Assembly (NCBI RefSeq): GCF_004010195.1
Contig: NC_057751.1
Coordinates: 9,183,611 to 9,247,610, forward strand
Direction: 5' to 3'
From: Chiloscyllium plagiosum
Lineage: Eukaryota
Length of the DNA: 64,000 nt
Numbering within the stretch: position 1 is the stretch's first letter; every line of letters begins with the position of its first letter. The position numbers and the translations under genes are program-made. The notes below the pieces were generated by a model. It ran no database searches, was not told the origin of the DNA, and saw nothing but the letters and a program-made list of their open reading frames with translations. Shown piece after piece: positions 1,021-64,000 of this stretch.

Positions 1021-2405
1021 AGATATTACTAATCTCAAGGCCTTCAGGCAGATCTTTCTCAGGATCTCATTGCCAGAAGTGAACCTGCCACATTGGCTCA
1101 TTCTTACATGGTTCTGGCTAATCAGTGTGTGGGTGAAGGTGAGGATATGATCCACTTTTGTTCAATCAAATCTCTGTTACTAAAGGCCTTAATAAATAAA
1201 GGCCTCAACAAAGAATAATTTTTCAGTTGCCATTCAGCTTCTTTGTGACAGTCAAACAAGGTACATTATCTCAGTAATTTATGGATGACTGGAATGTGCA
1301 GGCCTAATCTCATTCAGGTGAAGACTCTCTCTCACAGTCAAAGGTGTTTTCAATGTGTCCTACTTTTTTTTAACTGTCTCACCATATTTTTTAAACCATT
1401 CAATATTCTTTTGTTGGTTCTGAAGAAGTTGCTTAATTTTTTCCTTCTTTATTTTGTAAATGATTTTATTGAGAAAAAGATTTTGATTTTTTTACAAAAC
1501 TGCAAAATAGTATAACAATCTTATATTATAACAACAGTAACAGTAAACAAACTGCTACTCTACTCCACAACAATTTTAAAAGAAAAAGAAAGAAAACAGA
1601 AAACCATTTGCAAACTACAAATCAATAAATAAATTAAACAAAAAAAAAAATTAAATCAAATTGAACCAAGGCAAATTAAATTAAGTTAGAACACTCAGCG
1701 CAACCCCACCAAAGCTCCCCATCACCAAGAGCATCAGTTGGCATCGCCATTTGTATTCGTAATTCCTCCTCCCAGGGGCCCCCGGCCCACCAGACACAGC
1801 CCTTACAGCTATGCAAAGGCCCTAACCAATATAGCCGACAAGTCTGTGTCTATGTAGTTCAAAAAGGACCGCCACATCCTAGAAAAGAGTTACATTTGTT
1901 ACCATACTTGTAAGGAAGTTCAGGGGGATGTGCTTCACAACTAACCCTTGCCACCCAGAGAGCCCTGGGGGATTCTCCGACACCAAACTGATCAGAATGT
2001 TCTTCCTCGCACAAAATTAAAGAATATTAAACAGTTTCTTCCCATGCGTTTCCAAAGAGGGGAGATTCAGCAAACCCAAGAGGAGGGACACCAGATGTAC
2101 CTTGACCTTGGTTCCCAAGATCCCTTCCAAGACACTCTCTATAGCGCCCCAATATCTACGAAGCTTGTGGCATGACCACAAGCAGTGAGTAAGAGTACCA
2201 ATACCCATTTTACATTTGGAGCACATTAGAGAGGCTGCTGTCTTAAATTTCACAAGCCACTCCAGTGCCAAATAAGTCCTGTGGAGTACCTTCCGGTGCA
2301 TAGCCTGTGTCCTATTGCAGATCAAAATCCTCCTTATGTTCTCCCAAATATCCTCCCATGCCTCTGAAGAAATCTCCACCCCCAATTTCTGACTCCAGAT
2401 CCAGC

Positions 2406-2500
2406 CTTTCCTGAAGAAGGGCTTATGCCCGAAACGTCGATTCTCCTTCTCCTTTGATGCTGCCTGACCTGCTGCGCTTTTCCAGCAACACATTTTTATG
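2406..2500 (+). mobile_element. 95 bp PLE terminal mini-insertion with hammerhead core
   Basis: TSD tccag(a/g)tccagc at 2394-2405 and 2501-2512. Same family as the 3' end of the PLE at 3365-4175. Confidence 0.85.
2411..2438 (+). ncRNA. Minimal hammerhead ribozyme core
   Basis: CUGAAGA-A-GGGC(UUAU)GCCC-GAAACGUC. Confidence 0.75.
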
Positions 2501-4016
2501 TCCAGGTCCAGCACAGCCACTCCACGTCCTTCGAGACATTACCTCCTAATAAATGATAGAGGGTGCTGACTGAGAGAGGACCCATGGACCAAAGTACTCT
2601 CCTCTTCACATCAGACTACATTAACCATTAATGTAGTCTTTTTCTGTATAAAGTCCCGAATCTGAAAATAACAAAAGAGGTCCCTCCTAGGTAGTTCATA
2701 TTTCTGGCTCAGCTGTTCAAAAGACATCAAAACCTCCCCCTCAAATAAGTCTCCCAGACAGGAAACCCCTCGAGGTTCCCAGAGCCTAAAGCCAGGATCC
2801 ATCGATCCTGGCCAGAATCCTGGCATTCCTACTATGGGAGTAAAAGGGGAAGTTTTTCATGAATTCCCCTCACATCATTCTCCATGCTTTAACCGTGTTA
2901 AGGCCAATGGGGTTTCTGCAATGTTCCTTAACAGTCCTCATCTTGTCCATAAACACCAAATTGATGAGGGGGCATTTTGCCTCGGAGGCCTCCATGTCCA
3001 GCAAAATTGACCTCAGGTCCTGGCAAGCCCAATCAGCCACATAGGATAATAGGGAACTTAATTGATATTTCTTAAAATCTGGAAGGTCCACACCCCCCAT
3101 CCCCTGCGGAAGCTACAATTTAGCAAACCTAATAAGAGGCTGCCTATGATGCCAGATAAAAGAACCGAGCCAATTGTTAAGCCTCTGTAGTGCTTGCCTT
3201 GGCAGCATCAAAGGGAGCATTCGCATGGGATATAAAAAAGGAGGAAGAACATTCATTATGACCAGAGCTATTCTACCCAACCAGGATATCAGAAGATCCT
3301 CCCAGCGCTGAAGGTCTTGTCTTATCTTCTCTCGCTACTGTACAAAATTAGCCTTATATAATTGTTCCACCACAGAACACGCCAGATGGCCTCCTTGTTT
3401 AGAGACCGCAATTTCCCTTCCCACGTGCTTAAAGATGCCCTCCAACGCATCTCATCCACATCCTGCACCTCCGTCCTCAGACCCCACCCCTCCAACCGTA
3501 ACAAGGACAGAACGCCCCTGGTGCTCACCTTCCAACCAACCTTCGCATAAACCAAATCAGCCGCCAACATTTCTGCCACCTCCAAAAAGACCCCACCACC
3601 AGGGATATATTTCCCTCCCCACCCCTTTCCGCCTTCCGCAAAAACCGTTCCCTCCGTGACTACATGTCAGGTCCACACCCCCCTACAATGCACCCTCCCA
3701 TCCGGCACCTTCCCCTGCCACCATAGGAATTGCAAAACCTGCGCCCACACCTCCTCCCTCACCTCCATCCAAGGCCCTAAAGGAGCCTTCCACGTCCATC
3801 AAAGTTTTACCTGCACATCCACCAATATCATTTATTGTATCCGTTGCTCCCAATGCGGTCTCCTCTACATTGGGGAGACTGGACGCCTCCTAGCAGAGCG
3901 CTTTAGGGAACATCTCTGGGACATCCACACCAATCAACCACACCGCCCTATGGCCCAATATTTCAACTCCCCCTCCCACTCTGCCGAGGACATGGAGGTC
4001 CTGGGCCTCCTTCACC

Positions 4017-4038
4017 NNNNNNNNNNNNNNNNNNNNNN
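4017..4038. other. Assembly gap (Ns); further gaps at 8917-8949 and 10396-10561
   Basis: Runs of n. Confidence 1.
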
Positions 4039-4094
4039 CACCCCCACCCTCCTCTCACTTATCTCTCCACCCTTCAGGCTCTCTGCCTGTATTC

Positions 4095-4122
4095 CTGATG
4101 AAGGGCTTTTGCCCGAAACGTC
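4095..4122 (+). ncRNA. Minimal hammerhead ribozyme core at PLE 3' end
   Basis: CUGAUGA-A-GGGC(UUUU)GCCC-GAAACGUC. Confidence 0.8.
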
Positions 4123-4301
4123 GATTTTACTGCTGCCTGAACTGCTGTGCTTTTCCAGCACCACTCTAATCTAGACTTATATAATTGATCGAAGGATGAG
4201 GTGATTAAAAATGCCTAAGTACGGGAAACCTCCCTGTGAGCACCTGAAAGGGAATCAGATTCCGCCCCCAAGATCCGGTACTCGAACAAGACCCTCCACA
4301 G

Positions 4302-4639
4302 GCGATTTACACCGGTGACTGAGTCATTGGCAGAAGCCTTCTGGAGGGACCCCAATATAACTACTCTGGAGGTAGGGTCAAGAGGGCATTATATCACCCT
4401 TTATGCAGATGATGTTCTTCTTTTTCTAACTGACCTGACAATATCTGTACCCCAAAGAACCAAAGAAATGAATGACTTGTATTAAATGGGGTACAGATAT
4501 TGTCGGGTTAGTTAGAAAAAGAAGAACGTCATCTGCATAAAGGGTGATATAATGCCCTCCTGACCCTACCTCCAGAGCAGTTATATTGGGGTCCCTCCGG
4601 AAGGCCTCTGCCAATGACTCAATCACCAATGTAAATCGC
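4302..4639. repeat. Inverted duplication (~152 bp arms) inside L1 RT
   Basis: 4302-4453 is the reverse complement of 4487-4639, with ~10 mismatches. Confidence 0.93.
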
Positions 4640-7114: not shown

Positions 7115-8841
7115 GTCTATTTTCAGGTGCCCAGGAAGTCCTTTTCCCTTTTCCAATGAGTCAAAATTAAACACGGACCCTCCGTGGCTGAAATGTATTA
7201 CTGCCGGGTATCTTACATAGTATCTTTCCGATAGGAAGACCAGAATTGCACGCAATATTCCAACAGTGACCTAACCAATGTCCTGTACAGCTGCAACGTG
7301 ACCTCACAACTCCTGTACTCAATACTCTGACCAATAAAGGAAGGCATACCAAAGGCCTTCTTCACTATCATATCTACCTGAGGCTCCACTTTCAAGGAGC
7401 TATGAACCTGCACTCCAAGGTCTCTTTGTTCAGCAACACTCCCTAGGACCTTACCATTCAGTATATAAGTCTTGCTAAGATTTGCTTTCCCAAAATGCAG
7501 CATCTCACATTTATCTAAATTAAACTCCATCTGCTACTTCTCAGCCCATTGGCCCATCTGATTAAGATCCTGTTGTAATCTGAGGTTACCTTCTTCGTTG
7601 TTCACTGCACCCCCAAATTTGGAGTTATCTGCAAACTTACTTGTGAAACTTGAAAGAGTTCAGAAAAGATTTACAAGGATGTTGCCAGGGTTTGAGGATT
7701 TGGGCTACAGGGAGAGGTTGAATAGGCTAGGACTGTTTTCCCGGGAGTGTCAGAGGCTGAGGGGTGACCTTATAGAGGTTAATAAAATCATCAGGGGCCT
7801 GGATAGGATAAATAAACAAAGTCTTTTCCCTGGGGTGGGGGTGTCCAGAACTAGAGGGCATAGGTTTAGGGTGAGAGGGGAAAGATATGAGAGAGACCTA
7901 AAAGCAACTTTTTCATGCAGAGGGTGGTACGTGTCTGGAATGAGCTACCATAGGAAGTGGTGGAAGCTAAGTACAATTGCAACATTTAAAAGGCATCTGG
8001 ATGATTATACAAATAGGAAGAGTTTAGAGGGATGTGAGCCAAGTGCTGGCAGGTGGGACAAGATTGGATTGGGATATCTGGTCAGCAGGAACAAGTTGGA
8101 CCAAAGGGTCTGTTTCCATGCTATACATCTCTATGACTCTGTGACTCACTGAATATTCAAGTTCCTCAGCCACCTTACTATCTCATCAAAAGCCTTCCTC
8201 TTGTGGATCGCGGCCACAGAAAAGTCTTGGAAAAACATAATTCTTGATCCTTTGTACAGCAGAGCCTGGGGATCCTTCCCTAATGCTCTAGAAGCTTCCA
8301 ACACCATTTTCTTATCTCTATAGTGCCGGAGTCGCACTGGGACCAGGTGAGCCTGCTCGACCTGCCCTGACTTCCAGTCCATTGCTCCAAAAAAAAACCA
8401 ACTAGCTGACCTTCTTCCTCCAGCTCTGGCAGCCCGATTAAGCAGATGTTCTTCCGACGGCCTTGATTTTTGAGGTCATCGACCTGCTCCACCAAGGCCT
8501 GTACTGGCCTTTCCAGGGCCTGGACCCAGCCCTCTGAAGATTCCACTGCTGTTTCAGAAGTCGCAGTCCACTGCTCCATCTCCACAATGCGTTCCTGAGA
8601 CGCTGGATCTCCTGGTCATGCTTCTGTCGCATGACCGAGATCAGTTCCAGCCTGGTCCGGGCTTCCTACATCGCTGAATCAATCTTCTCTCGGAGTTTCA
8701 TGAATCCCGAGACCAGGCTCTGCTCCACAGAAAGGTCCTCAGGAAGTTCGTGAAGGCCGATGCTGCAGCTGCAGGCATGTTCATAGCTGCAAGGGAGTGC
8801 CCTGCTTGTTGCAATCCTCGCTGTCCTTTTCCCTTGGTCAT
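7115..8841 (-). pseudogene. L1 ORF1 (Transposase_22-like RNA-binding protein), frameshifted and interrupted by a CR1
   Basis: Coiled-coil followed by RRKNICLIGLPE, VRLRHYRDKKMVLEASR, IMFFQDFS and NIQ|YYVRYPA motifs in ORFs 8280-8585, 8146-8382 and 6935-7255. Probable start MTKGKG at 8841. Confidence 0.85.
7222..8147 (+). mobile_element. 5'-truncated CR1 with inverted 5' part, inserted in L1 ORF1
   Basis: 7222-7641 is CR1 RT on the minus strand. 7641-8147 is the CR1 3' end on the plus strand, ending in ctatgactctgtgactc. Confidence 0.92.
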
Positions 8842-11625: not shown

Positions 11626-11928
11626 TGTCTTAGTAATGTGGCCGACAACAAGATGCGTTGCAGGATCTGATGACAAGTGTCAGGGGAACTATCTCAACAT
11701 TGGGAACATCTTGCACCATCTTTTATGTTTTTCACAAATAGTATGGCAAACTTCTTCTGAGGCAGTAGTGAGATGCCAAATGACTGAGACCAATGCTTGT
11801 TAGGCTCCTTGTTAAAGGCATAACATGCCTCATTCGTATTCAGCATCTCACACTACCAAACTTGCCAAACAAGCTGGACATCAGGAAACCTCAACAAAGA
11901 AACAAGAGTAAGCACTTGCACAAATCCA

Positions 11929-12146
11929 GAGTCAAAAAGTGTGGCATGGAAAAGCACAGCGGGTCAGGCAGCATCCAATGAACAGGACAATCGACGTTTT
12001 GAGTATAAGCTCTTCATCAGGAATGAAGAGCTTATTCTCAAAATGTCAACTCTCCTACTCCTCAGATGCTGCCTGACCAGCTGTGGTTTTCCAGCACCAC
12101 ACATTTTGACTCTGATCTCTATCATCTGCCGTCCTCACTTGCTCCT
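11929..12146. mobile_element. Fold-back pair of PLE termini with decayed hammerhead cores
   Basis: Inverted arms around ~12021. Degenerate TSD acttgcacaaatcca (11914-11928) / acttgcatagattca (12147-12161). Confidence 0.8.
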
Positions 12147-12959
12147 ACTTGCATAGATTCAACTCACTGCTTGCTTCAAACTACCTCCATGTTGGAAAGC
12201 TGGCACAAATATCTCAGGACACACTCCATGGACGACCAACCACATTCACTCCACCCTCATAACATTGCATTCAACATGTGCCAGTTTCTAAGAACTCTCA
12301 AGGCATATCTCTGATCCACTTACAGGACGTTTCTGCATTTCAATACTGCACTTCAATACTATCACTGCAATGTTGCAGCAAGGATACAAAAAACCCTCCT
12401 AAAAACCCAACAAAACTTGGATTTAGCCAAAAAATGTATGATTTGGTCATGTGTATCCACCTTTATGTCTCCCAGAAACATTAGGAAATGAAGGGACTTT
12501 TTAAACAAAGCAACAAAAAAAATTGATATGAGTAAAGGAGTTGCTCTTCAAAGTTAACTGGATCGAAGGTTTCAAAGGCCAGATCTTTCCATTTTTCTTT
12601 ATTTTTGGATTGTGGCCCAGAATGAAAAAAGGATATTGTTTTAAACCAAGAAAAGAGTTTTCAACCAAGATCCTGGAACTTATTATGAATTGCGTCTAGA
12701 CTGTTGCCTTCTTCAAGCAGTGGAAGAGATCTGCTGGACTTAGCAACAGTTTGGGTGTGTATTCAGGGTAGTTTTGCCCAGAGACTGGCTTTTCAATCAG
12801 GAACAATTGTATGGGTCAGGAGTGCTCAATATTGCAACTTTTGATTGTGTCCTAGGCAGGTAGTCTAAATGTGTATGAACAATACAGTGACAAAAAGCCT
12901 CCGGACGAAAAAGATAAAACTGTCTCTCTCCGTACAGAGAAGCAACGAAGAATTAGAAG

Positions 12960-20625: not shown

Positions 20626-22584
20626 TAAATGATGGCCTTGTACTTAAGATGAGCCAAGTCTGCAGGTATCAAAACTCAAAGGTGCACTGTTTCCTACCTC
20701 TAAAGTTCAGTACTGAACATGGAGGTGTATTTCCCTTAGCCACCTCAATGGTGATTCTAGTACTGCAGAGCAAATATAGCATGAACAATGTTGGTCTTTA
20801 CTTAATTCGATAGGTGCACTCCACCAGTCAGGAAAACTACTGATTTCTGCCAAGTGCATTAAGCAATGATTCTTCACACATTCATTTGTTTATCTGAATC
20901 TGTTCTGTTTATCACTTGTTGATGCGTTTTATTCCTTCAGTTGCATTCTTTGCTGCGTAATTCCAAAGGGACTGTGTTTGAATTGCACGCCAACAGCCCA
21001 AACAATTGATTGCTGGAGGAGTTGTAGCCATGCCTGATTGTGTTCACAACCAAATTTTTGTACTTGACTTTCGTGCATGAATTGAAAATTCCTTGAAAAC
21101 ATGTGCAATTCAAACACAGTCCCTTTGGCAAACATTTATTCCAGAACTGTGACCAAACGGCTGACACACTATAAATCATCTAGCAGTCACAGAGCTATAT
21201 GAAAACAAGCATTTAATCTTGTATCCATCCTGAAAACTATATATGTATACATTGTATATATTTCAGCAGAGACCAGCAGACTGCAATGCAGAGCAATAAT
21301 TCTGAGTGAGCAAATTCATAGACAGGGGATACCAGATACAACTGGACCACAATTGCTGTTTTTCTGTTCGAGACCAGTTAACTACTAGATTAAGCTTGAA
21401 CCTTCACTGCCTTTGCTCAATTCTCCCCTGGGCAATGGCTGTCCCAACTAAGTCACTGAGAAGTATCATTTTTGATTTGCACAGCAACCTTTTACTTACA
21501 CTGTTACTTTTAGAAAATGAAAATCATTTGGAGTACATGTGAAAGTCGAAGAACTCAACGCAAGCAGTTGTCAGCTGCCAAGTGTGAAGTGCTTTGCCTT
21601 GTACAGCTGCATCCCAGCCAGAATTCCATTCTCATGTTAAGACAGAAGGCACTTTTCAATCACACCTATCGTCTTCTAAGTGAGAAGTGGCAGGGAACCA
21701 GTGGGAATTGATGACTTGAGACAGGAAGTTTGAGGTTCTTTTGGTCAAACATCATCTGCAGGAAACAGGTATCAGCAGCTGATACATTAAGAACCTATTG
21801 CTTGGTCTCTTTGATGTTGACTTTTGGGATTTGGGATGTCGGAATTAATTTTTTTTTGTAAATGATTATTCATGACCGGTGGTCAGTCTGTTAATAGTAT
21901 AGCGGCCCTTTATACTAATGCTCCCTTGCTTTTATTTTGGGTCTGATTATTTGCTGTATCACAACAATCAACCCAAACCACAGCTACATATCATTTTATC
22001 CTCTGGGTGAAATTTGACACAACAAGTATTAACCTCTTTGAATATTTCAGACACAGATATCCAAATGTTCCCTTTCACGTATCAAATACAATGATGTCAC
22101 ATTTCAGTGACAGTGTGGACATGGATTTAGGCAATGAATGAATATGACTTGATAGCTATTATGGAGATTGCTTACAGCATGACGGAAACTGAATGTTCAA
22201 GGGTATTTGACATTTCAGAAGAATAGACAAAACGGAAAAGGAGATGAGGTAAGCATTATTGACAAAAGAAGTTGTTATTGTGGTGCTGAATTGTGGCATC
22301 AGTAAAAAATAGATTATGATGTCGAATAAGCTTTTTCAGAAATAAGGAACAGGGAGGGAAAGAAGTCACAAATGGGAATAGTTTGTAAGCCCTGAAGAAT
22401 TGTCTCACAGTAGGACAAAGTATGTATCACAAAATAACGGAGGGACTAAGAAGGGCATTGCAATTGTCAATGGAAATTTTAATCTGTATAGTGATTGGAC
22501 AAATCAGATAGACAAGGTAACATAGAAGACAAATTGGTACAGTGCATCAGGGATTGGTTCTGAGAGCAGCACACTGCAGAACCT

Positions 22585-22764
22585 AAAACAGAAAATGCTG
22601 GAGATCACAGTGGGTCAGGTCTAGATGACTCTCAGCTCTGATGAAGGTCATCTCGATTCAAAACGTTGGCTTCTTTCTCTCCATGGATGCTGCCTGACCC
22701 GCTGTGATCTCCAGCATTTTTTGTTTTCAATTCAGATTCCAGCATCTGCAGTAATTTGCTCTGA
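22585..22764. mobile_element. Fold-back PLE terminal insertion (older family), decayed hammerhead at 22638-22667
   Basis: aaaatgctggagatcacag..ggtcagg is inverted against cctgacccgctgtgatctccagcatttt; degenerate TSD at 22571-22584 / 22765-22778. Confidence 0.7.
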
Positions 22765-22804
22765 CATTGCCGATCTTACCAGGAATAGGCTATTTTATCC
22801 CTAG

Positions 22805-22903
22805 TCTAGATTAGAGTGGTGCTGGAAAAGCACAGCAGGTCAGGCAGCATCCGAGGAGCAGGAAAATCGACGTTTCGGGCAAAAACCCTTCATCATGAAT
22901 GGC
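22805..22903 (-). mobile_element. 99 bp PLE terminal mini-insertion with hammerhead core (22869-22896)
   Basis: Perfect 15 bp TSD ctattttatccctag at 22790-22804 and 22904-22918. Confidence 0.9.
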
Positions 22904-23244
22904 CTATTTTATCCCTAGCAATATGTAAGGATTAATAAGAGATCTTATAGTCAAGAATCATCCAGGAGGCAGCAATCACAACATGGCAGAATTTAAAATT
23001 CAGTTTGAGGGAGAGCATTTTACGTCTCAAACCAGTGTACTAAACTTAAAGAAGGGCAATTACAGAGGTATGAAGAAAGAGTTGTCTAAACAGGGTTGGG
23101 AAAACAGATGAAGGTTAAGGTCAACAGATGAGGAGGAGCAGATATTTGAACAGATATCACATAACTCTTGGCAAAAATTTATTTTAGTCAAAGAAGCAGG
23201 ACTTGTTGAGAAGGATAAACCACCAGTGGTTAACAGTGGCTAAG

Positions 23245-24347: not shown

Positions 24348-25820
24348 GTGCTTTTCATGATTTATATGAATGATTTAGATGTGAACACAGGAGGTATTGT
24401 TAGTAAGTTTGCAGATGACACCAAAATTGGAGGTGGAGTGGACAGCGAAGAAGGTTACGTCAGAGTACAATGGGATCTTGATCAGATGGGCCAATGGGCT
24501 GAGGAGTGGCAGGTGGAGCTTAATTTAGATAAATGTGAGGTGCTGCATTTTGGAAAGGCAAATCAGGGCAGGACTTATACACTTAATGGTAAGGTGCTAG
24601 GGAGTGTTGCTGAACAAAGAGACCTTGGGTGCAGGTTCATAGTTCCTTGAAAGTGGAGTCTCAGGTCGATAGGACAGTGAAGTAGGCGTTTAGTATGCTT
24701 TTCTTTATTGGTCAGAGCATTGAATAGAGGAGTTGGGAGGTCATGTTGCACCTGTACAGGACATTGATGAGGCCACTTTTGGAATAGTGTGTGCTATTCT
24801 GGTCTCCCTGTTAGAGAAAGGATGCTGTGAAACTTGAAAGGTTCAAAGTTTGTGAGAAGATTTGTAGCTTGGGTGCCGTTGTTGTGGTTCTATTTGCCGA
24901 GCTGGGAATTTGTGTTGCAGACATTTCGTCCCCCGTCTAGGTGACATCCTCACTGTTTGGGAGCCTCCTGTGAAGCGCTTCTGTGTTGTTTCCTGTGGCA
25001 TTTATAGTGGTTTGTCTCTGCTGCTTCTGGTTGTCAGTTTCAGCTGTCCGCCGCAGTGGCTGGTATATTGGGTCCAGGTCGATGTGTTTGTTATAGAAGC
25101 ATGGCACTCATCCACAGATTCTATCAACAAACACATCGACCTGGACCCAATATACCAGCCACTGCAGCAGACAGCTGGAACTGACAACCGGAAGCAGCAG
25201 AGACAAACCACTATAAATGCCGGAGGAAACAACACAGAAGCGCTTCACAGGAGGCTCCCAAGCAGTGAGGATGTCACCTAGACAGGGGACGAAACGTCTG
25301 CAACACAAATTCCCAGCTCGACGAACAGAGCCACAACAAACTTGAAAGGGTTCAAAAAAGATTTACAAGGGTGTTGCAGGAGTTGGAGGTTTTGAGCTAT
25401 AGGAAGAGGTTGAATAGGCCAGGGCTGTTTTCCCTGGAGCGTCAGAGGCTAAGGGGGGACCTTAGAGAGGTTTATAAAATCATGAGGGACATGGATAGAG
25501 TAAATAGACAAGTTGGGGGAGTCCAGAACTAGAGGGCATAAGTTTAGGGTGAGAGGGGAAAGATTTAAAGGGACCTAAGGAGCAATTGTTTCACGTCGAG
25601 GGTGATGCATGTATGGAATAAGCTGCCAGAGGAAGTGGTGGAGGTTGGTACAATTACAATATTTAAAAGGCATCCAGATAGGTACATGAATAGGAAGGGT
25701 TTACAGGGACATGGGCCAAATGCTAGCAAATGGGACTAGATTAATTTAACATTTCTGGTCAGCATGGATGAGTTGGACTGAAGGGTCTGTTTCCATGCTG
25801 TGCATCTCTCTGACTCCATG
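24348..25820 (+). mobile_element. CR1 3' half interrupted by a PLE fold-back
   Basis: YMNDLD, KFADDTKIGG, KCEVLHFGK; 3' tail ggactgaagggtctgtttcc...tgactccatgac. Confidence 0.92.
24848..25337. mobile_element. Fold-back Penelope-like insertion (second PLE family; ~210 bp arms) with hammerhead cores at 24920-24953 (-) and 25265-25298 (+)
   Basis: Encodes EAWHSSTDSINKHIDLDPIYQPL, resembling the C-terminus of PLE GIY-YIG domains. TSD aaacttgaaag(g)gttcaaa at 24830-24847 and 25338-25356. Confidence 0.88.
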
Positions 25821-27519: not shown

Positions 27520-30500
27520 TGTTTCTCTTAAGAGGTCATTGTCCACATTGGAACCAACGACTTAGGAAGGGAAACGGTTGAGATTCTGAAGGGAGATTAC
27601 AGAGATTTAGGCAGAAATTTAAAAAGGAGGTCCTCAAGAGTAGTAATATCTGGATTATTCCCGGTGCTACGAGCTAGTGAGGCAGGAATAGGAGGATAGA
27701 GCAGATAAATGCATGGCTAAGGAGCCGGTGTATGGGAGAAGGATTCACATTTTTGGACCATTGGAATCTCTTTTGGGGTAGAAGCGACCTGTACAAGAAG
27801 GATGGATTGCACTGAAATTGAAAGGGAACTAATATACTGAAAGGGAAATTTGCTAGAGTTGCTTGGGAGGATTTAAACTAGTAAGGTTGGCGGGGGGGGG
27901 GGGGTTGTGGGTATGGGACCCAGGGAGATAGTGAGGAAAGAGATCAATCTGAGACTAGTACAGTTGAGAACAGACGCAAACCAAACAGTCAGGGCCGACA
28001 GGTACAAGGTAGGACTAATAAATTAAACTGCATTTATTTCAATGCTAGGGGCCTAACAGGGAAAGGCAGATGAACTCAGGGCATGGTTAGGAACATGGGA
28101 CTGGGATATCAAAGCAGTTACAGAAACATGGCTCAGGGATGGGCAGGACTGTCAACTTAATGTTCCAGGATACAAATGCTCGAGGAAGGTTAGAAAGGGA
28201 GGCAAGAGAGGAGGGGAGGGTGACATTTTTGATCAGGGATAGCATTACAGCTGTGCTGAGGGAGGATATTCCCGGAAATACATCCAGAGAAGTTATTTGG
28301 GTGGAACTGAGAAATAAGAAAGGGATGATAACCTTATTGGGATTATATTATAGACCCCCTAGTAGTCAGAGGGGGAAACAAACTTGTAAGGAGATCTCAG
28401 CTATCTGTAAGAATAATAGGGCAGTTATGGTAGGGGATTTTAACTTTCCAAACATAGACTGGGACTGCCATAGTGTTAACGGTTTAAATGAAAAGGAATT
28501 TGTTAAGTGTGTACAAGACAATTTTTTCATTCAGTATGTGGATGTACCTACTAGAGAAGGTGGGAAATAAGGCAGGGCAGGTGACTGAGGGGTCAGTGGG
28601 GGAGCACTTTGGGGCCAGCGACCATAATTGTATTAGATTTAAAATAATGATGGAAAAGGATAGACCAGATCTAAAAGTTGAAGTTCTAAATTGAAGAAAG
28701 GCCAATTTTGACGGTATTAGACAAGAACTTTCGAAAGCTGATTGGGGGTAGATGTTCACAGGTAAAGGGATGGTTGGAAAATGGGAAGCCTTCAGAAATG
28801 AGATAACAAGAATCCAGAGAAAGTGTATTCCTGTCAAGGTGAAAGGAAAGGCTGGTAGGTATAGGGAATGCTGGATGACTAAAGAAAGTGAGGGTTTGGT
28901 TAAGAAAAAGAAGGAAGCAGATGTAAGGTCTAGACTGGATAGATCGAGAGAATCCTTAGAAGAGTATAAAGGCAGTAGGAGTATACTTAAGAAGGAAATC
29001 AGGAGAGCAAGAAGGGGACATGAGATAGCTTTGGCAAATAGAATTAAGGAGAATCCGAAGAATTTTTACAAATACATTAAGGACAAAAGGGTAACTGGGG
29101 AGAGAATAGGGCCCCTCAAAGATCAGCAAGGCGGCCTTTGTGTGGAGCCGCAGAAAATGGGGGAGATACTAAATGAGTATTTTGCGTCAGTATTTACAGT
29201 GGAAAAGGATATGGAAGATATCGACTGTAGGGAAATAGATGGTGACAGCTTCAAAATGTCCACATTACAGAGGAGGAAGAGCTGGATGTCTTGAAATGGG
29301 TAATGGTGGATAAATCTCCAGGACTTGAACTCTGTGGGAAGCTAGAGAAGTGATTGCAGGGCCTCTTGCTGAGATATTTGTATCATCGATAGTCACAGGT
29401 GAGGTGTTGGTAGACTGGAAGTTGGCTAACATGGTGCCATTGTTTAAGAAGGGCGGTAAAGACAAGCCAGGGAATTTTAGACCAGTGAGCCTGATGTCGG
29501 TGGTGGGCAAGTTGTTGGAGGGAATCCTAAGGGACAGGATGTACATGTATTCGGAAAGACAAGGACTGATTAAGGATAGTCAACATGGCTTTATGCATGG
29601 GAAATCATGTCTCACAAACTTGATTGAGTTTTTTGAAGAAGTAACAAAGAGGATTGATGAGGGCAGAGCCATAGATGTGATCTATATGGACTTCAGTAAG
29701 GCGTTCAACAAGGTTCCCCATGGGAGACTGATAGCAAGGTTAGATCTCACGGAATACAGGGAGAACTCGCCATTTGGATACAGAACTGGCTCAAAGGTAG
29801 AAGACAGAGGATGGTGGTGGAGGATTGTTTTTCAGGCTGGAGGCCTGTGACCAGTGGAGTGCCACAAGGATCAGTGCTGGGTCCTCTTTTTGTCATTTAC
29901 ACAAATGATTTTGATGCGAGCATAAGAGGTACAGTTAGTAAGTTTGCAGATGACACCAAAATTGGAAGTGTAGTGGACAGTGAAGAGGGTTACCTCAGAT
30001 TACAACAGGGTCTTGACCAGATGGGCCAATGGGCTGAGAAGTGGCAGATGGAGTTTAATTCAGATAAATGCGAGGTGCTGCATTTTGGGAAAGCAAATCT
30101 TAGCAGAACTTATACGCTTTATGGTAAGGTCCTCGGGAGTGTTGCTGAACAAAGAGACCTTGGAGTGCAGGTTCATGCTCCTTGAAAGTGGAGTCGCAGG
30201 TAGATAGGATAGTGAGGAAGGCGTTTGGTATGCTTTCCTTTATTGGTCAGAGTGTTGAGTACAGGAGTTGGGAGGTCATGTTGCGGCTGTACAGGACATC
30301 GGTTAGGCCACTGTTGGAATATCATATGCAATTCTGGTCTCCTTCCTGTCGGAAAGATGTTGTGAAACTTGAAAGGGTTCAGAAAAGATTTAAAAGGATG
30401 TTGTCAGGGTTGGAGGATTTGAGCTATGGGGAGAGGCTGAACTGGCTCGGACTACTTTCCCTGGAGTGTCGGAGGCTGAGGTTTACAAAATTATGAGGGT

Positions 30501-43521: not shown

Positions 43522-44419
43522 CTCAATGTTGTATGTGTGGTTTGGGCTTGAAGTGATGGAATTTTGTCCATCTTTTCTTGGAAGTTATAAATCACTACCC
43601 TTCATTATTGCTCGGTGTCCAGATAGATGGTAAGGAAAATAAAGTCTACTTACATTTGGGAATTTAAAGATATTTGCTGGGTTTATGGGGAATGTTAGGA
43701 GGTGTTTAGATTTTAAAGTGTTGGGAAACAGGTTTCCGGGGCCTCAACATTGCGAACAATGGATAATCTTCTCAGACTGTGGTATTGAGATGTCACATCT
43801 TTCTTAGGATGTGTGAACACTAGGATGTGTGGCAACAACTTATGGAACACAGGGAATAAAATCTAGTAGCCCGATGCCCGAGTGAACAAAATCCTTCAGG
43901 CAGAGAAAAAAAACAGCCCAGATTTGTGCTGAGATTTGGGTTTCACTGCTGGACAAATACCCACCTTCCCCACCACTCACATAGTCCAAGGAATTAAGCA
44001 ATGAAACAAACTCCTTCCAGTTTCCTGAATGTAACATTATGACCAGGCAATGTTCCCCAATTTATTCTAGTTCCAGATGGGAAGCCATAAATAGTCAAGC
44101 TCCTGGCAATGGTTCCATAACTTGTTGCCACACATCCTAGTGTTCACACATCCTAAGAAAGATGTGACATCTCAATACCACAGTCTGAGAAGATTATCCA
44201 TTGTTCGCAATGTTGAGGCCCCGGAAACCTGTTTCCCAACACTTTAAAATCTAAACACCTCCTAACATTCCCCATAAACCCAGCAAATATCTTTAAATTC
44301 CCAAATGTAAGTAGACTTTATTTTCCTTACCATCTATCTGGACACCGAGCAATAATGAAGGGTAGTGATTTATAACTTCCAAGAAAAGATGGACAAAATT
44401 CCACACATACAACATTGAG
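43522..44419. repeat. Near-perfect inverted duplication, 292 bp core arms, 263 bp spacer
   Basis: 43557-43848 is the reverse complement of 44112-44403 with one mismatch by eye. Confidence 0.97.
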
Positions 44420-45741
44420 TGTTCAATGACGAGATCTGGTATATCTTCAACTTGCTTGGAGATAGAGAAGTGTGATTTTGCTTTGTTAATTTCCCTGTTG
44501 TTCAAGCCTATGCATCCAAAATGATCAACTGGTTCTTGGATATCATGGATTTAAATAACAATAACACTTCCATCCATTATAATAAGTCCATACCCCTCAT
44601 TTCTGAAGGAAAGCAACCACCAATACATCAGAGAAACAACGGAGGTAGTCGGCTGCTTAACCTTTGGCTCCTCACTCATTATATCAGATAATCCTGATTC
44701 TGACTGACCCAAGTGGCTTAGTGACCACGTCCAAAGCCGTGGGTTGCTCTTGCAGACTGCCCATCACCCTCAAGCGAAGGCTATCACCTTGATTTGATTA
44801 AGGACTGTTGACAACCACAAAAAGCATCCAGGCTTTGTGTCTGCAGTCAACAACACAACAAAAGTAATATGAGTCTCACAGCTCTAGCTGAGGGGACAAA
44901 ACACTAAAAGGCAAGTAAGGCAATGCAAGGCAAGGATGGTGTGAGCATGCAGGTAAACTCAGAGTGAGTGAGCACTATGACAGAGAGCAAATTGTATGGA
45001 GATCCATCCTAATCCTGTCCATAAGTTGGGATGGAGTCCCTGAGCACAGGGTCCGTGCAGCAGCTTTGGAACAACAGTAACTGGTGCAACCAAGGTGCAG
45101 CCATGAAGTGCAGAAGTGTCCCGTAACTCTCCTGATTGGAGATGTGCCAGAAGGATTTTTAGCGGCTGGCACATAGCAGATGCCAGTGTCTAAGGATGTG
45201 GGGTGCATGTGGCTGGTCCCCTTGGAGCATACCCTAAGATGTTGGTGCTGATTGCCCAACATGGAGGTCTTTTTGTGCAAGTAGTGAGCATAAGTTGCTG
45301 AATACCCAATCTGAGTTTGATTATGCGACTTCTTCATGTCTAGTTTCTTTGGCACGTTTGTTAGAATGAGAAGCCCAATGAGGTGAGATGAAGCATTAAT
45401 ATGGCTTTTTACAAGCTATAAGCTCTCTCAATTACTAACTTACTCCTGTCTTATGAGAAACTGGCTATGTTACTCAGCAAAATGCAATACTCACCTCACA
45501 CTAAAGCCTTGACTTCTCTTCTTCGCCCTTTTTATTCATTAACCCCAGCCGTAAATGTTGTACACTTGTTGGCAGGATTGGAGATAGTTGTAATTTATTT
45601 TCCAGTATCTGCTACAAAATAATAACACCGAGATTAAAGCCACAGGCTTTATGCAATAATGCACAACTTGTTGGTGAGTGTGATTTCAATACTTTTCTTG
45701 ACACATTTTAAAATTTTTTGGTTGTACTACATTGTTTTATG

Positions 45742-45961
45742 CTGAAAATGTGTTGCTGGAAAAGCGCAGCAGGTCAGGCAGCATCCAGGGAACAGGAGAA
45801 TCGACGTTTCGGGCATAAGCCCTTCTTCTTCATTCCTGAACAAGGGCTTATGCCCGAAACGTCGATTCTCCTGTTCCCTGGATGCTGCCTGACCTGCTGC
45901 GCTTTTCCAGCAACACATTTTCAGCTCTGATCTCCAGCATCTGCAGACCTCACGCTCTCCC
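45742..45961. mobile_element. Fold-back pair of PLE termini with hammerhead cores (45803-45828 minus, partial; 45836-45863 plus)
   Basis: ~85 bp near-perfect arms; TSD cta(ca/tg)ttgttttatg at 45727-45741 and 45962-45976. Confidence 0.92.
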
Positions 45962-46861
45962 CTATGTTGTTTTATGACTGGAGAAAAATCCTCCAGATAT
46001 ACAAATGAAGTTTTTTTTGTTCTATAGCACTGTACTCACTGTGCATTTGGAGTAATAATTCTTTTTTATTATTATGAAGCCCTGAGGGCATCAATAATTC
46101 CCATATCTAGTTATTTGAGTCAGTTGGACTTCAAGTCAGGCCGAAGTGTTAATGAACATACCACCTTGGTTTATTGGTAACTTTTTGTGAGTCTAAATCA
46201 ATTCAAAAGACCCACAGGAACATTAAAGCTTGAAGCAAGTAGGCAAGATCCGTGCAAAAAAACGATGTTAACATTTCAGTTATGGATACTTTGCTGAAAA
46301 TATTTTGAAATTAAACACTGATTCCTCTGTTTTTCCATGGTACTGCACATCACCTGAATATTTCTATCCATTCTCAGTTTATGTTTCAAAGTTCCAACAC
46401 TTATGACTACTTCCAATAATTTTGCTTTTTGTAAAACAAGGCTGACTTGCTTTCAAAATTATGAACTCCAATCTCAAACCTGACAGTACATACTGTGGCT
46501 GGATACCATTTCTTCGGGTCCTGTTCCACGTTAGGGCAAGTCTCAACGGAAGACGTGAGAAGATATTACAGCTTCTACATTTCGATTGTGCAGCATCAGA
46601 AGTGATCCTCTATGGGCAGCAATAATTATCTAGTCTGCAGAAGGCCTCTGGTTAATGTGTAATTACACGTTCAGTACTGTGGCCTGTAGGCCAAGAGAAA
46701 TTGAAACTAATCTTCACTGGTGAATCGCTCACACTTAGCACTGCTAGAATGGGACAACACTCATTCATTGTAAAGGTTGGAAGTGCTTATGTATTGTTTT
46801 CTTTACTCTCCTCAATATCTTACTCTACTGTTCACTTTACTGCATTCAAGCAGGTCTGAAT

Positions 46862-55770: not shown

Positions 55771-56043
55771 AAGAGCAGAATCAGCAAAAACATAGATTTA
55801 AGATAGTGGAAATCTTCACTATTTTTGCTTTCAAGCATTCCCAGGACTAGATTCAATGTCAATATTAATCACATGATACCAAAATTTTCTCTCAACCTAA
55901 TCAATCTCGTGCCCCAATTTGAATGATTATAGCAACTTTACTATTTCCAGTTCTCGGTATTTGATAGGTCTCCAGATATTTGTTGCCCATTGCTAATTAG
56001 CCCAATGGGACATGTAATGCTTTTTCAAAGGACATTTAAGAGT

Positions 56044-56244
56044 TAGCAGGTTTTGAGAAGATTTGTAGCTCAGGTTGAGGTTCTGGATGTAGGTTTGCTT
56101 GCTGAGCTGGAAGGTTCATTTTCAGACATTTTGTCACCATACAGGGTAACAGCTTCGTCCGGAGGCCCACTGAAGATGTCACCTAATATGGTGACGAAAC
56201 GTCTGAAAATGAACCTTCCAGCTCAGCGAGCAAACCTACATCCA
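56044..56244. mobile_element. Fold-back PLE terminal insertion (third family) inside a SINE
   Basis: Perfect 13 bp TSD gacatttaagagt at 56031-56043 and 56245-56257; inverted arms; shares gagaagatttgtagct with the insertion at 24848. Confidence 0.88.
56170..56203 (+). ncRNA. Hammerhead ribozyme core with perfect 6 bp stem II
   Basis: CA-CUGAAGA-U-GUCACC(UAAUAU)GGUGAC-GAAACGUC-UG. Confidence 0.82.
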
Positions 56245-56689
56245 GACATTTAAGAGTCATCACATTACTGAGAGACCAGAGTCATATGTAAGCCAAACCA
56301 GATAAGCTAGGTACATTGACCTTCCCTGAAGTAAATGAGCAAACTGGATGGGTTTTTATGGCACTCATGTTTCCTGGCATTAAAATGGAGATAAACTTTA
56401 TATTCCAGAATTACTGTTAATTTAATCCAAATTCCACCAGCAACCAGGGTGAAATTTGAACCAGTATCCTCAAAACATGAGTCTCAGGCCTTTGAATTAC
56501 TTGAGCACTGGCATGATCACTGCTACTGTCACCTCTTGAATAAATGAAGGTAACATAGCACTGTGAAGTGCCACCCACAACAAATGGAGCTATCTTACCA
56601 ATGGAAAAGTTCTTTTTCTAAAACAAAACACAAGTGCTACATAATAATCCACGGGGGAAAGAGAGGAGGAAATAAGCATCATAATTATC

Positions 56690-62245: not shown

Positions 62246-62340
62246 GTCCTGATGAAGACTTAAGTCGAAAAGTCAACTCTCTTGCTTCTCAGATGCTGCC
62301 GTACATGCTGTGCTTTTACCAGTGCTACACTTATTATTGG
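62246..62340 (+). mobile_element. ~90 bp PLE terminus with hammerhead core (62249-62274)
   Basis: CUGAUGA-A-GAC(UUAA)GUC-GAAAAGUC followed by gatgctgcc...tgctgtgctttt. Confidence 0.75.
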
Positions 62341-63167: not shown

Positions 63168-64000
63168 GAGATGACACCAAAATCGGAGGTGTAGTGGACA
63201 GTTAAGGAGGTTACCTCAGAGTTCCACAGGATCTTGATCAGAAGGGGTTTAGATTAGAGTGGTGCTGGAAAAGCACAGCAGGTCAGGCAGCATCCGAGGA
63301 GCAGGAGAATCAATGTTTCGGGCAAAAGCCCTTCATCAGGATCCTGATGAAGGGCTTTTATCCGAAATGTCAATTTTCCTGCTCCTCGAATGCTGTCTGA
63401 CCTGCTGTGCTTTTCCAGCACCACTCTGATCTAAACTCTGGTTTCCAGCATCTGCAGTCCTCACTTTTGCCTTCTTGATCAGAAGGGCCAATGGGCCGAG
63501 GAGTGGCAGATGGAGTTTAATGTAGATAAACATGAGGTGTTGCATTTTGGAAAAGCAAATCAGGGTAGGACTTATACATTAATGGTAAGGTCCTAGGGAA
63601 TGTTGCTGAACAAATACATCTTGGAGAGCAGGTTCATTGTTTTTTGAAAGTGGAGTTGCAGGTGGACAGGATAGTGAAGGCAGCATCTGATATGCTTTCC
63701 CTTACTGGTCAGAGCAGCGAGTATAAGAGTTGGAAGGTCATGTTGTGACTGTGTAGGACATTAGTTAGACCACTTTTTGAATAGTGTGCACAATTCTAGT
63801 CTCACTCCTATTGGAAGGATGGTGAAAAACTTGAAAGGATCCAGAAAAGATTTAAAAGGATGTTGCCAGGAGTGAAAGGTTTGAACAAAGGAAGAGGCTG
63901 AATAGGCTGGGGCTGTTTTTCTTGTAGTGTTGGAAGCTGAGGTTTATAAAATCATGAGGGACATGGATAGGGTAATAGACAAGGTCTTTTCTCTGGGGTG
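63168..64000 (+). mobile_element. CR1 3' half (runs off the window) interrupted by a PLE fold-back
   Basis: DDTKIGG, WAEEWQMEFN, LERIQKRFKRMLPG. Confidence 0.9.
63247..63472. mobile_element. Spacer-less palindromic pair of PLE termini with two back-to-back hammerhead cores
   Basis: Centre cttcatcaggatcctgatgaag; perfect 15 bp TSD tcttgatcagaaggg at 63232-63246 and 63473-63487. Confidence 0.93.

What the first reader, a model, noticed from the sequence alone, without database searches (positions are those of the whole stretch)
63232..63487. Zero-spacer palindrome of two back-to-back hammerheads
Seen: cttcatcagGATCctgatgaag forms a perfect centre, so each strand carries a core starting 2 nt from the symmetry axis. 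Arms are ~95 bp, one has a ~35 nt tail, and the 15 bp TSD is perfect. This is the sixth fold-back in the window (11929, 22585, 24848, 45742, 56044, 63247), and in five the turn-around lies at or just upstream of the ribozyme. Established: PLEs often carry inverted 5'-truncated terminal copies and a short tail. Inference: the ribozyme position dictates the inversion point, giving MITE-like or pre-miRNA-like hairpins from a retroelement.
Basis: partly seen in the sequence, partly recalled or inferred. Interest (0 to 1): 0.7.

Follow-up and report, generated by a model that had tools for sequence, protein, structure and literature searches.

The report
Head-to-head Penelope retroelement stub
The hairpin is real but is a decayed, ordinary insertion of a Penelope-like jumping gene (two copies of its end piece joined head to head); its join lies at the front edge of a small hammerhead ribozyme motif, not at the ribozyme's cut site, and non-inverted copies often end there too.

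Summary
Observation confirmed: a 226-bp insert (63247-63472) between exact 15-bp duplications, with 95-bp arms (89% alike), no spacer and a 36-bp tail on one side, inside a LINE whose sister copies carry the site once. This is the published Penelope-like (PLE) unit: terminal repeat, inverted 5'-truncated copy, one-sided tail. Five of six window fold-backs turn within 4 nt of the hammerhead core (one only after allowing a deletion). The cut site lies ~29 nt away, both motifs are decayed, and non-inverted copies end at the same place. Among 104 scorable metagenome PLE-hammerhead loci, 37 are fold-backs: 22 turn within 15 nt of the core, none at the cut, 8 further upstream. So the motif's 5' edge marks a favoured cDNA end; self-cleavage does not set the inversion. 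In 6 of 9 scorable cases the loop comes from the untailed arm, favouring two separately primed cDNAs over snap-back. No support for MITE or miRNA behaviour. The scan has reported this family and clustering before on other pieces of this genome.

The parts
63232..63246 (+). left target-site duplication, 15 bp, part of the host LINE reading frame
   Evidence: exact repeat; present once in sister LINE copies
63247..63341 (-). inverted, untailed arm: PLE terminal-repeat end from -2 to +93 relative to hammerhead C3
63312..63339 (-). decayed minimal hammerhead motif (core intact, helix II intact, helix III palindrome broken by two CpG changes, triplet AUU)
63324..63359 (.). perfect 36-bp palindromic centre; axis between 63341 and 63342, no spacer
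63342..63436 (+). direct, tailed arm: same PLE end from -2 to +93
63344..63371 (+). decayed minimal hammerhead motif (helix II damaged, first helix I pair lost, triplet GUC, cut would follow 63371)
63437..63472 (+). 36-nt one-sided PLE tail (+94 to +129), homologous to the tails at 12113-12146 and 45926-45966
63473..63487 (+). right target-site duplication
63169..63891 (+). host LINE reverse-transcriptase region interrupted by the insert (CR1-type; the clade name is recalled)
   Evidence: empty site matches 24413-24701, 29948-30238, 7339-7630; sister copy hits Pfam RVT_1, E 3.6e-15; D1
11914..12155 (.). sister fold-back, related subfamily, tail on right, 9-bp duplication with 1 mismatch
22585..22770 (.). 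fold-back of a second family; left arm has a 36-nt deletion; no clear TSD
24830..25349 (.). fold-back of another family that turns at -146, in the endonuclease-coding end; 12-bp TSD, tail on left
45732..45976 (.). sister fold-back, arms 99% alike, 10-bp TSD, tail on right
56031..56257 (.). fold-back of another family, 13-bp TSD, tail on left
22788..22918 (-). non-inverted copy of the same subfamily, 5' end at about -4/-5, 15-17-bp TSD, no tail
2394..2512 (+). non-inverted copy, 5' end at -3 to -5, 12-bp TSD with 1 mismatch
3551..4177 (+). long copy of the same subfamily: GIY-YIG endonuclease remnant followed by the terminal repeat; ties the family to an EN+ PLE
   Evidence: Pfam GIY-YIG E 1.8e-4, 22.2 bits, just under the 22.6 cut-off

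Best explanation
A dead-on-arrival insertion of an endonuclease-bearing Penelope-like retroelement. SHOWN: insert with a 15-bp TSD in an older LINE; two head-to-head copies of the element's last ~95 nt, one with the 36-nt tail; a long relative in the window has a GIY-YIG remnant. INFERRED (about 0.6): the PLE protein nicks both target strands 15 nt apart and each nick primes a cDNA on the element RNA, one from the distal and one from the proximal RT start site (the gap between them is the tail). Both cDNAs tend to end at the 5' edge of the hammerhead (-10 to +4 in this genome), and their 3' ends are joined, bluntly here and over 3-4 nt inverted microhomologies elsewhere. If only one nick is used, a 95-130-nt solo copy with the same 5' end results. 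WHY cDNAs end there is open: most likely the template RNA starts there (initiator-like motif with its A at -4 or -3 in two families; about 0.5), otherwise RT stops at a protein-bound or folded hammerhead (about 0.3). Self-cleavage plays no part in fixing the turn. The locus has since decayed by transitions and has no shown function.
For: Anatomy, TSD and empty site. Published unit: inverted 5'-truncated copy plus a 30-40-bp tail at either end (PMC8557442); head-to-head junction palindromes (PMC3846280). Anolis PLE protein cleaves and extends both strands, starts RT at two sites that bound the tail, is modelled as a dimer, and hammerhead mutants still insert (PMC11167929). Same anatomy in other animals: 37 of 104 scorable loci fold back; exact TSD of 10+ bp in 16 of 33 against 0 of 30 shifted controls; one-sided tail in 21 of 37, 11 on the sense arm and 10 on the antisense arm. 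Loop comes from the untailed arm in 6 of 9 scorable loci and in 3 of 5 looped window cases (read), which snap-back of a tailed first strand cannot give. Turn never at the cut site, 0 of 37. Non-inverted copies end at the same spot: window 4 of 6; small metagenome families 20 of 25 within -22. In three DNA runs 644, 704 and 496 contigs leave the alignment at 63341 and share only ~6 more letters (agreement 0.34-0.35, like the known 3' end at 0.41-0.42, unlike continuing LINE sequence at 0.60-0.75). Inner end does not track arm length (slope 0.07+-0.15 and 0.13+-0.21, 1 expected).
Against: In the largest metagenome family the clustering is loose: 10 of 22 antisense ends within +-15 (p 0.004), only 5 of 22 within +-8 (p 0.065), KS against an exponential p 0.27; only 4 of 22 simple copies end near the motif and 14 run past -100. 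The search pattern forces one arm to hold the core, which biases towards nearby turns. Later deletions at palindrome tips could also move loops to either arm. Two long window copies have strong 3' splice-site-like motifs at -17 and -25, and in D. virilis the start site lies ~120 nt upstream of the intron end that abuts helix I (PMC2377424; PMC4209133), so an RNA start at -4 is not established. Contig counts favour copies with unique flanks. Noise in outer ends flattens the regression slope. No contig spans the insert.
Confidence: 0.72

Rival explanations
1. Snap-back self-priming: one cDNA (or an antisense template, as Arkhipova et al. proposed) folds on itself at a short inverted match near the hammerhead core and is copied back, giving the second arm.
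For: Arms come from one source: best or tied-best partner in 8 of 19 and at most 4 of ~48 others better in 13 of 19; both arms here share a variant absent from two subfamily copies. Junction overlaps of 3-4 nt at 11929 and 45742. Proposed in PMC3846280.
Against: A tailed first strand must supply the loop, yet 6 of 9 scorable loops come from the untailed arm. The zero-spacer join here has no microhomology in the family sequence. It does not explain solo copies with the same 5' end.
Confidence: 0.2
2. One reading: the ribozyme itself (cleavage or catalytic fold) sets the inversion point.
For: Turn-arounds cluster at the motif in the window and in other animals; helix II shows a compensatory change in a subfamily (3 cells), so the motif was under selection in source elements.
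Against: Cut site is ~29 nt from the turn; 0 of 37 turn at it. The two cores lie on opposite strands, so the same-sense dimer that minimal hammerheads need (PMC4209133) cannot form in one transcript, and the 95-bp stem would bury either. Hammerhead mutants insert normally in vitro. Hammerhead-less Naiads invert too. A non-catalytic role as an RT stop is not excluded and is counted in the best explanation.
Confidence: 0.08
3. The clustering is only a length and ascertainment effect: short cDNAs dominate, the motif sits 70-100 nt from the 3' end in every family, and searches keyed on the motif keep only arms that reach it.
For: KS against exponential not significant in the large family (p 0.27); 14 of 22 simple copies there run past -100; pattern-based sampling.
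Against: The window search for inverted repeats of 25+ nt was not keyed on the motif and found no PLE fold-back that clearly turns downstream of it (22585 has a deletion). 11 of 18 downstream ends lie in +1..+15 (p 0.0012). Slope near 0 against outer end. TSD-bounded solo copies end at -3 to -5.
Confidence: 0.15
4. The palindrome is a mobile unit of its own (MITE-like) or a functional hairpin RNA (pre-miRNA or siRNA source).
For: Very stable hairpin; very large family, with family-like reads in a polyA RNA run.
Against: Every junction seen is different (6 in the window, 37 outside); TSD lengths vary; ends are asymmetric. Arms have drifted by 10 uncompensated transitions. miRNA model hits 14-24 bits against gathering scores of 61-100.
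Confidence: 0.04

Closest known systems
Insertion unit of canonical EN+ Penelope-like elements: pLTR, adjacent inverted 5'-truncated copy, 30-40-bp one-sided tail, TSD (PMC8557442 passages; PMC3846280 passages)
   Same: Head-to-head copies of the terminal repeat, 36-nt tail on one side, 15-bp TSD, palindromic junction, GIY-YIG relative nearby.
   Different: No ORF at all: the whole insert is the two ends. Junction palindromes described in Adineta are 18-38 bp within longer units; the passages read do not tie the junction to the hammerhead.
Minimal type I hammerheads in metazoan PLE terminal repeats (PMC4209133, parts 1-2 of 4 read)
   Same: CUGANGA core, extra base before G10.1, G10.1-C11.1, palindromic 15.2-16.2 in intact family members; the paper notes opposite-strand pairs ~100-700 bp apart and many solo motifs from truncated PLEs.
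   Different: Here the pair is 4 nt apart, helix II is 4 bp, helix I only 2 firm pairs, and both motifs are decayed.
Poseidon of Anolis carolinensis, PAc (PMC11167929, parts 1-2 of 4 read)
   Same: Two RT start sites ~110-150 nt into the region that begins at the hammerhead, bounding the tail; both strands nicked and extended; cleavage by the ribozyme dispensable.
   Different: The long window relative has a CxxC linker suggesting the Neptune clade (inference and PMC8557442); the paper does not treat head-to-head joining or 5' end points.
Non-LTR retrozymes (bioRxiv 10.64898/2026.07.22.740005, part 1 and passages)
   Same: Short, non-coding, hammerhead-bearing PLE derivatives.
   Different: Retrozymes are head-to-tail tandem arrays with same-sense ribozymes; this unit is head-to-head with TSD and tail.
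L1 twin priming (recalled, not read)
   Same: Both nicks prime cDNA; microhomology joins.
   Different: L1 inversions cover non-overlapping parts of one RNA; here the arms cover the same 95 nt.

Membership tests
EN+ Penelope-like element insertion | Terminal repeat linked to a GIY-YIG endonuclease ORF end | tested here: met
   Same-subfamily copy at 4095 follows a GIY-YIG remnant (E 1.8e-4, just below cut-off). Largest outside family likewise (E 0.007, below cut-off).
EN+ Penelope-like element insertion | Inverted 5'-truncated terminal copy adjacent at the 5' end | tested here: met
EN+ Penelope-like element insertion | 30-40-bp tail at one end only | tested here: met
   36 nt
EN+ Penelope-like element insertion | Short variable target-site duplication | tested here: met
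   15 bp exact, empty site in sister LINEs
EN+ Penelope-like element insertion | PLE-type reverse transcriptase in the source element | not tested
   No RT part of this family was found in the window's ORF list; no genome held.
Minimal hammerhead (min-HHR) | CUGANGA, extra base, G10.1-C11.1, helix II, GAAA | tested here: met
   Helix II 93% of cells paired in 12 window copies, slid controls 2-48%; right arm has one mismatch and one G-U in helix II.
Minimal hammerhead (min-HHR) | Palindromic 15.2-16.2 and NUH for dimeric helix III | tested here: not met
   Met in intact family copies, broken by CpG decay in both arms of this locus.
Minimal hammerhead (min-HHR) | Helix I of 4-5 bp | tested here: inconclusive
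   Native family has 2 firm pairs; the palindrome centre happens to offer 6 pairs to the left-arm motif and loses the first pair in the right arm.
Minimal hammerhead (min-HHR) | Self-cleavage | not testable with these tools
   Needs an assay; no pile of RNA ends in one polyA run is uninformative.
MITE | Terminal inverted repeats at both ends, fixed TSD length, many copies of one unit | tested here: not met
   One-sided tail, TSDs 7-20 bp, all junctions distinct; criteria recalled.
Non-LTR retrozyme | Head-to-tail tandem units each with a same-sense hammerhead | tested here: not met
   Head-to-head, opposite strands; definition.
pre-miRNA | Short hairpin processed to a discrete ~22-nt RNA | not testable with these tools
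   No small-RNA run laid; Rfam miRNA hits far below gathering.

The most novel reading that the evidence does not exclude
Across animals, hammerhead-bearing PLEs have a built-in cDNA end point at the 5' edge of the hammerhead (a strong-stop-like product made from the 5' RT start sites of the element RNA), and their inverted ends arise when a protein dimer primes both target nicks from the two RT start sites and joins the two cDNAs. The hammerhead region would then act as a positional landmark rather than a cutter, and PLEs would be a steady source of ~100-bp hairpins built anew at each insertion. This would make the unexplained tandem/inverted PLE structure and the role of the poorly active minimal hammerhead directly testable in the existing Anolis in vitro system.
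Probability: 0.35. Interest if true: 0.58.

Novelty: new member of a known kind. Interest (0 to 1): 0.3.

Why it matters
The locus itself is an inert, ordinary PLE insertion. What has some value is the positional rule and the loop-versus-tail test: they constrain how PLE inverted ends are made, a step the literature read here calls undefined, and they say that such hairpins should be annotated as retroelement stubs, not as MITEs, ribozyme dimers or miRNA genes. The same rule shows in unrelated animal families, more loosely, so it is not peculiar to this genome.

Tried and rejected
Rfam at gathering level found nothing in the window; at E<=10 only miRNA and sRNA models far below threshold. A family-specific 25-nt pattern found 0 matches in metagenome and viral contigs. 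No RNA holder listed for the locus. In the one raw RNA run laid (about 2 in 100 of it read, polyA single-cell), 52 of 3315 laid reads were 99+% alike, unique flanks had depth 0-1 and no pile of starts or ends appeared: uninformative on expression or cleavage. Orthologous flanks exist in organisms B and C but no contig bridged the insert, so presence or absence could not date it. Joints on opposite strands at 63259/63434-63436 were rejected as inversion evidence: they are ordinary tailed copies split over a palindromic reference. Assembly artefact rejected (10 transitions between arms, TSD). 5' end at the splice acceptor rejected for this family (-17/-25 against -2 to -10). Sequence look-up in earlier findings returned nothing. 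Paper searches for twin priming with Penelope and for shark PLE hammerheads listed no paper on this point.

Full report
Observation. The structure is as described. Two 95-nt arms (63247-63341, 63342-63436; 89% complementary) meet with no spacer; the perfect centre is 36 bp. A 36-nt tail follows the right arm and an exact 15-bp repeat brackets the 226-bp insert. With the insert and one repeat copy removed, the flanks align continuously at 81-85% with three other LINE copies in the window, one of which hits Pfam RVT_1; calling the host CR1 and the genome shark-like rests on recall and on earlier notes. The arms differ at 10 of 95 positions, all transitions, 4 at CpG, which fits an old real insertion. 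The unique left flank is matched without substitution by a contig of run X1 and with about 3-5% differences in organisms B and C, but no contig crosses the insert.

Identity. The arms are the end of a repeat family with at least a dozen pieces in the window. One long copy (3551-4177) carries a GIY-YIG remnant directly upstream (E 1.8e-4, just under Pfam's cut-off). Inverted 5'-truncated terminal copies with a 30-40-bp tail on one side are the standard PLE insertion unit (PMC8557442, passages); head-to-head junction palindromes are described in Adineta and read there as self-priming (PMC3846280, passages). Minimal hammerheads in PLE terminal repeats, including opposite-strand pairs 100-700 bp apart and many solo motifs, are described in PMC4209133 (parts 1-2 of 4). 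Rfam has no matching model. Helix II is supported across 12 window copies (93% of cells paired, one compensatory pair in 3 related rows; slid controls 2-48%), helix I only by 2 pairs. At this locus both motifs have lost the helix III palindrome to CpG decay, and the right one has a damaged helix II. They lie on opposite strands, so the same-sense dimer cannot form in one transcript, and a read-through RNA would fold into a -181 kcal/mol stem.

Does the turn track the ribozyme? In the window, inner ends are -2, +4, +3, +3 and -146 relative to C3; 22585 is +56 by local alignment and +1 when a 36-nt deletion is allowed. Four or five of six within +-8 nt is unlikely under exponential length decay (p 1.5e-4 to 7.6e-4 for 4 of 6; 4e-6 to 3e-5 for 5 of 6; window chosen after seeing the data). 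But the cut site is ~29 nt downstream, and non-inverted copies end at the same place: of 7 such copies, one lacks a reference, two are long, and four end at -2 to -5, two of them bounded by clear TSDs. In three DNA runs 644, 704 and 496 contigs, and 428 RNA reads, leave the alignment at 63341, share about six more letters and then diverge (agreement 0.34-0.35 in DNA, 0.42 in RNA), like the known 3' end (0.41-0.46) and unlike continuing LINE sequence (0.60-0.75); contig counts favour copies with unique flanks.

Outside test. They look like animal-host PLE copies (inference; the largest family has a weak GIY-YIG hit upstream, E 0.007); a few may be chance matches. Four loci assembled twice were dropped and 13 had under 60 nt upstream, leaving 104; 37 are head-to-head fold-backs, one doubtful (L092). 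Exact TSDs of 10+ bp flank 16 of 33 against 0 of 30 controls (7+ bp: 25 of 33 against 11 of 30); 21 of 37 have a one-sided tail, on either arm equally. The shorter arm ends within +-15 nt of C3 in 22 of 37, at +16..+60 in 7, and upstream of -16 in 8; none ends at the cut. The pattern forces one arm to hold the core. For the unforced antisense arm in the largest family (values picked by hand), 10 of 22 fall within +-15 (p 0.004), 5 of 22 within +-8 (p 0.065), and a KS test against an exponential is not significant (p 0.27). Simple copies end within -22 in 20 of 25 cases in small families (which mostly lack a long reference) but in only 4 of 22 in the large family. The inner end does not follow the outer end (slopes 0.07+-0.15 and 0.13+-0.21, n 30 each). 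So a favoured end at the motif's 5' edge is real, sharp in this genome, looser elsewhere, and not absolute.

Mechanism. The Anolis PLE protein nicks and extends both strands, starts RT at two internal sites that bound the tail, is modelled as a dimer, and inserts normally with a dead hammerhead (PMC11167929, parts 1-2 of 4). Two cDNAs primed at the two nicks from the two start sites, ending near the same point and joined head to head, give exactly this unit (inference; the analogy to L1 twin priming is recalled). Snap-back of a tailed first strand predicts that any loop belongs to the tailed arm. It does in 3 and does not in 6 of the 9 scorable outside loci (28 of 37 unscorable), and in the window three loops (11929, 24848, 56044) belong to the untailed arm and two (22585, 45742) to the tailed arm (read). 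Later deletions at hairpin tips could blur this. Arms usually come from one source: best or tied partner in 8 of 19, at most 4 of ~48 better in 13 of 19, with 4 clear exceptions; this fits both models. Why cDNAs end there is not settled. An initiator-like motif (consensus recalled) has its A at -4 and -3 in two families but is absent from the 4095 copy. Against an RNA start there, both long copies have a strong 3' splice-site-like motif at -17 or -25, and in D. virilis transcription starts 46 nt before a 75-nt intron (PMC2377424, passages) whose end abuts helix I. Hammerhead-less Naiads also invert, so the motif is not needed for inversion.

What it is not. Not a MITE: all junctions seen differ, TSD lengths vary, ends are asymmetric. 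Not a retrozyme, which is head-to-tail (bioRxiv 10.64898/2026.07.22.740005, part 1 and passages). No evidence for or against small RNAs could be had.

Prior record. Seven paper searches (open-licence library only, supplements not read) listed no paper that maps PLE 5' ends or inversion points against the hammerhead, or that applies twin priming to PLEs; subscription papers, and the supplementary figures of PMC11167929 and PMC4209133, could hold this. The scan itself has noted this family and the clustering repeatedly on other pieces of this genome; those notes are unchecked, agree with my tests, and raised my weight on the RNA-start reading. New here are the cross-animal sample and the loop-versus-tail test.

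Verdict. A new member of a known kind; interest 0.3. The bolder reading, a general strong-stop-like end point plus twin-primed joining, has probability about 0.35 and would deserve about 0.58.

Noticed in passing
window 4302-4639: 153-nt fold-back (93%, 32-nt loop) without a hammerhead, made of a LINE RT segment (YADD motif; L1/Tx1-like by recall) whose sense arms point inward; it lies in an old LINE also hit by PLE copies at 2406 and 3551.
   Followed up: partly
window 43557-44403: 292-nt inverted arms at 100% identity around a 263-nt spacer, no hammerhead; a very recent inverted duplication or an assembly artefact.
   Followed up: no
window 20963-21128: 26-bp perfect terminal inverted repeats around 114 nt; looks like a true MITE, unlike the PLE fold-backs.
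   Followed up: no
window 24953 (-) and 25265 (+): Both arms of the 24848 fold-back have G in place of hammerhead C3, a change that kills cleavage; shared by both arms, so present in the template or the family.
   Followed up: no
window 4077 and 10299 regions: Polypyrimidine tract plus YAG 17 and 25 nt upstream of the hammerhead core in two long subfamily copies; an RNA loose-end consensus shows a similar motif, suggesting a conserved leader intron.
   Followed up: partly
window 63311 (run X21): 143 RNA reads leave the alignment exactly at the first base after the would-be cut site but run on into a pyrimidine-rich stretch ending in AG; probably one or a few expressed copies lacking the hammerhead, not cleaved ends.
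   Followed up: no
window 63336-63347: The palindrome centre happens to supply a 6-pair helix I to the minus-strand motif, better than the 2 firm pairs of the native family; likely irrelevant because the long stem competes.
   Followed up: partly
window 63292-63391: Weak Rfam hit to mir-761 (23.8 bits against 82; E 0.013) includes a 9-nt stem identity on both arms; probably chance, but ancient PLE fold-backs as miRNA sources could be checked.
   Followed up: no
L074, L075, L094, L108; L019, L037, L047, L091; L028, L056, L057, L089: Family-specific sharp 5' ends at about -15 to -17, -7 and -5, in two families right at the 5' strand of helix I.
   Followed up: partly
window 11925-12146 and 62247-62322: A subfamily with a compensatory G-C to A-U change in helix II, shared by both arms of the 11929 fold-back and a solo copy.
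   Followed up: yes
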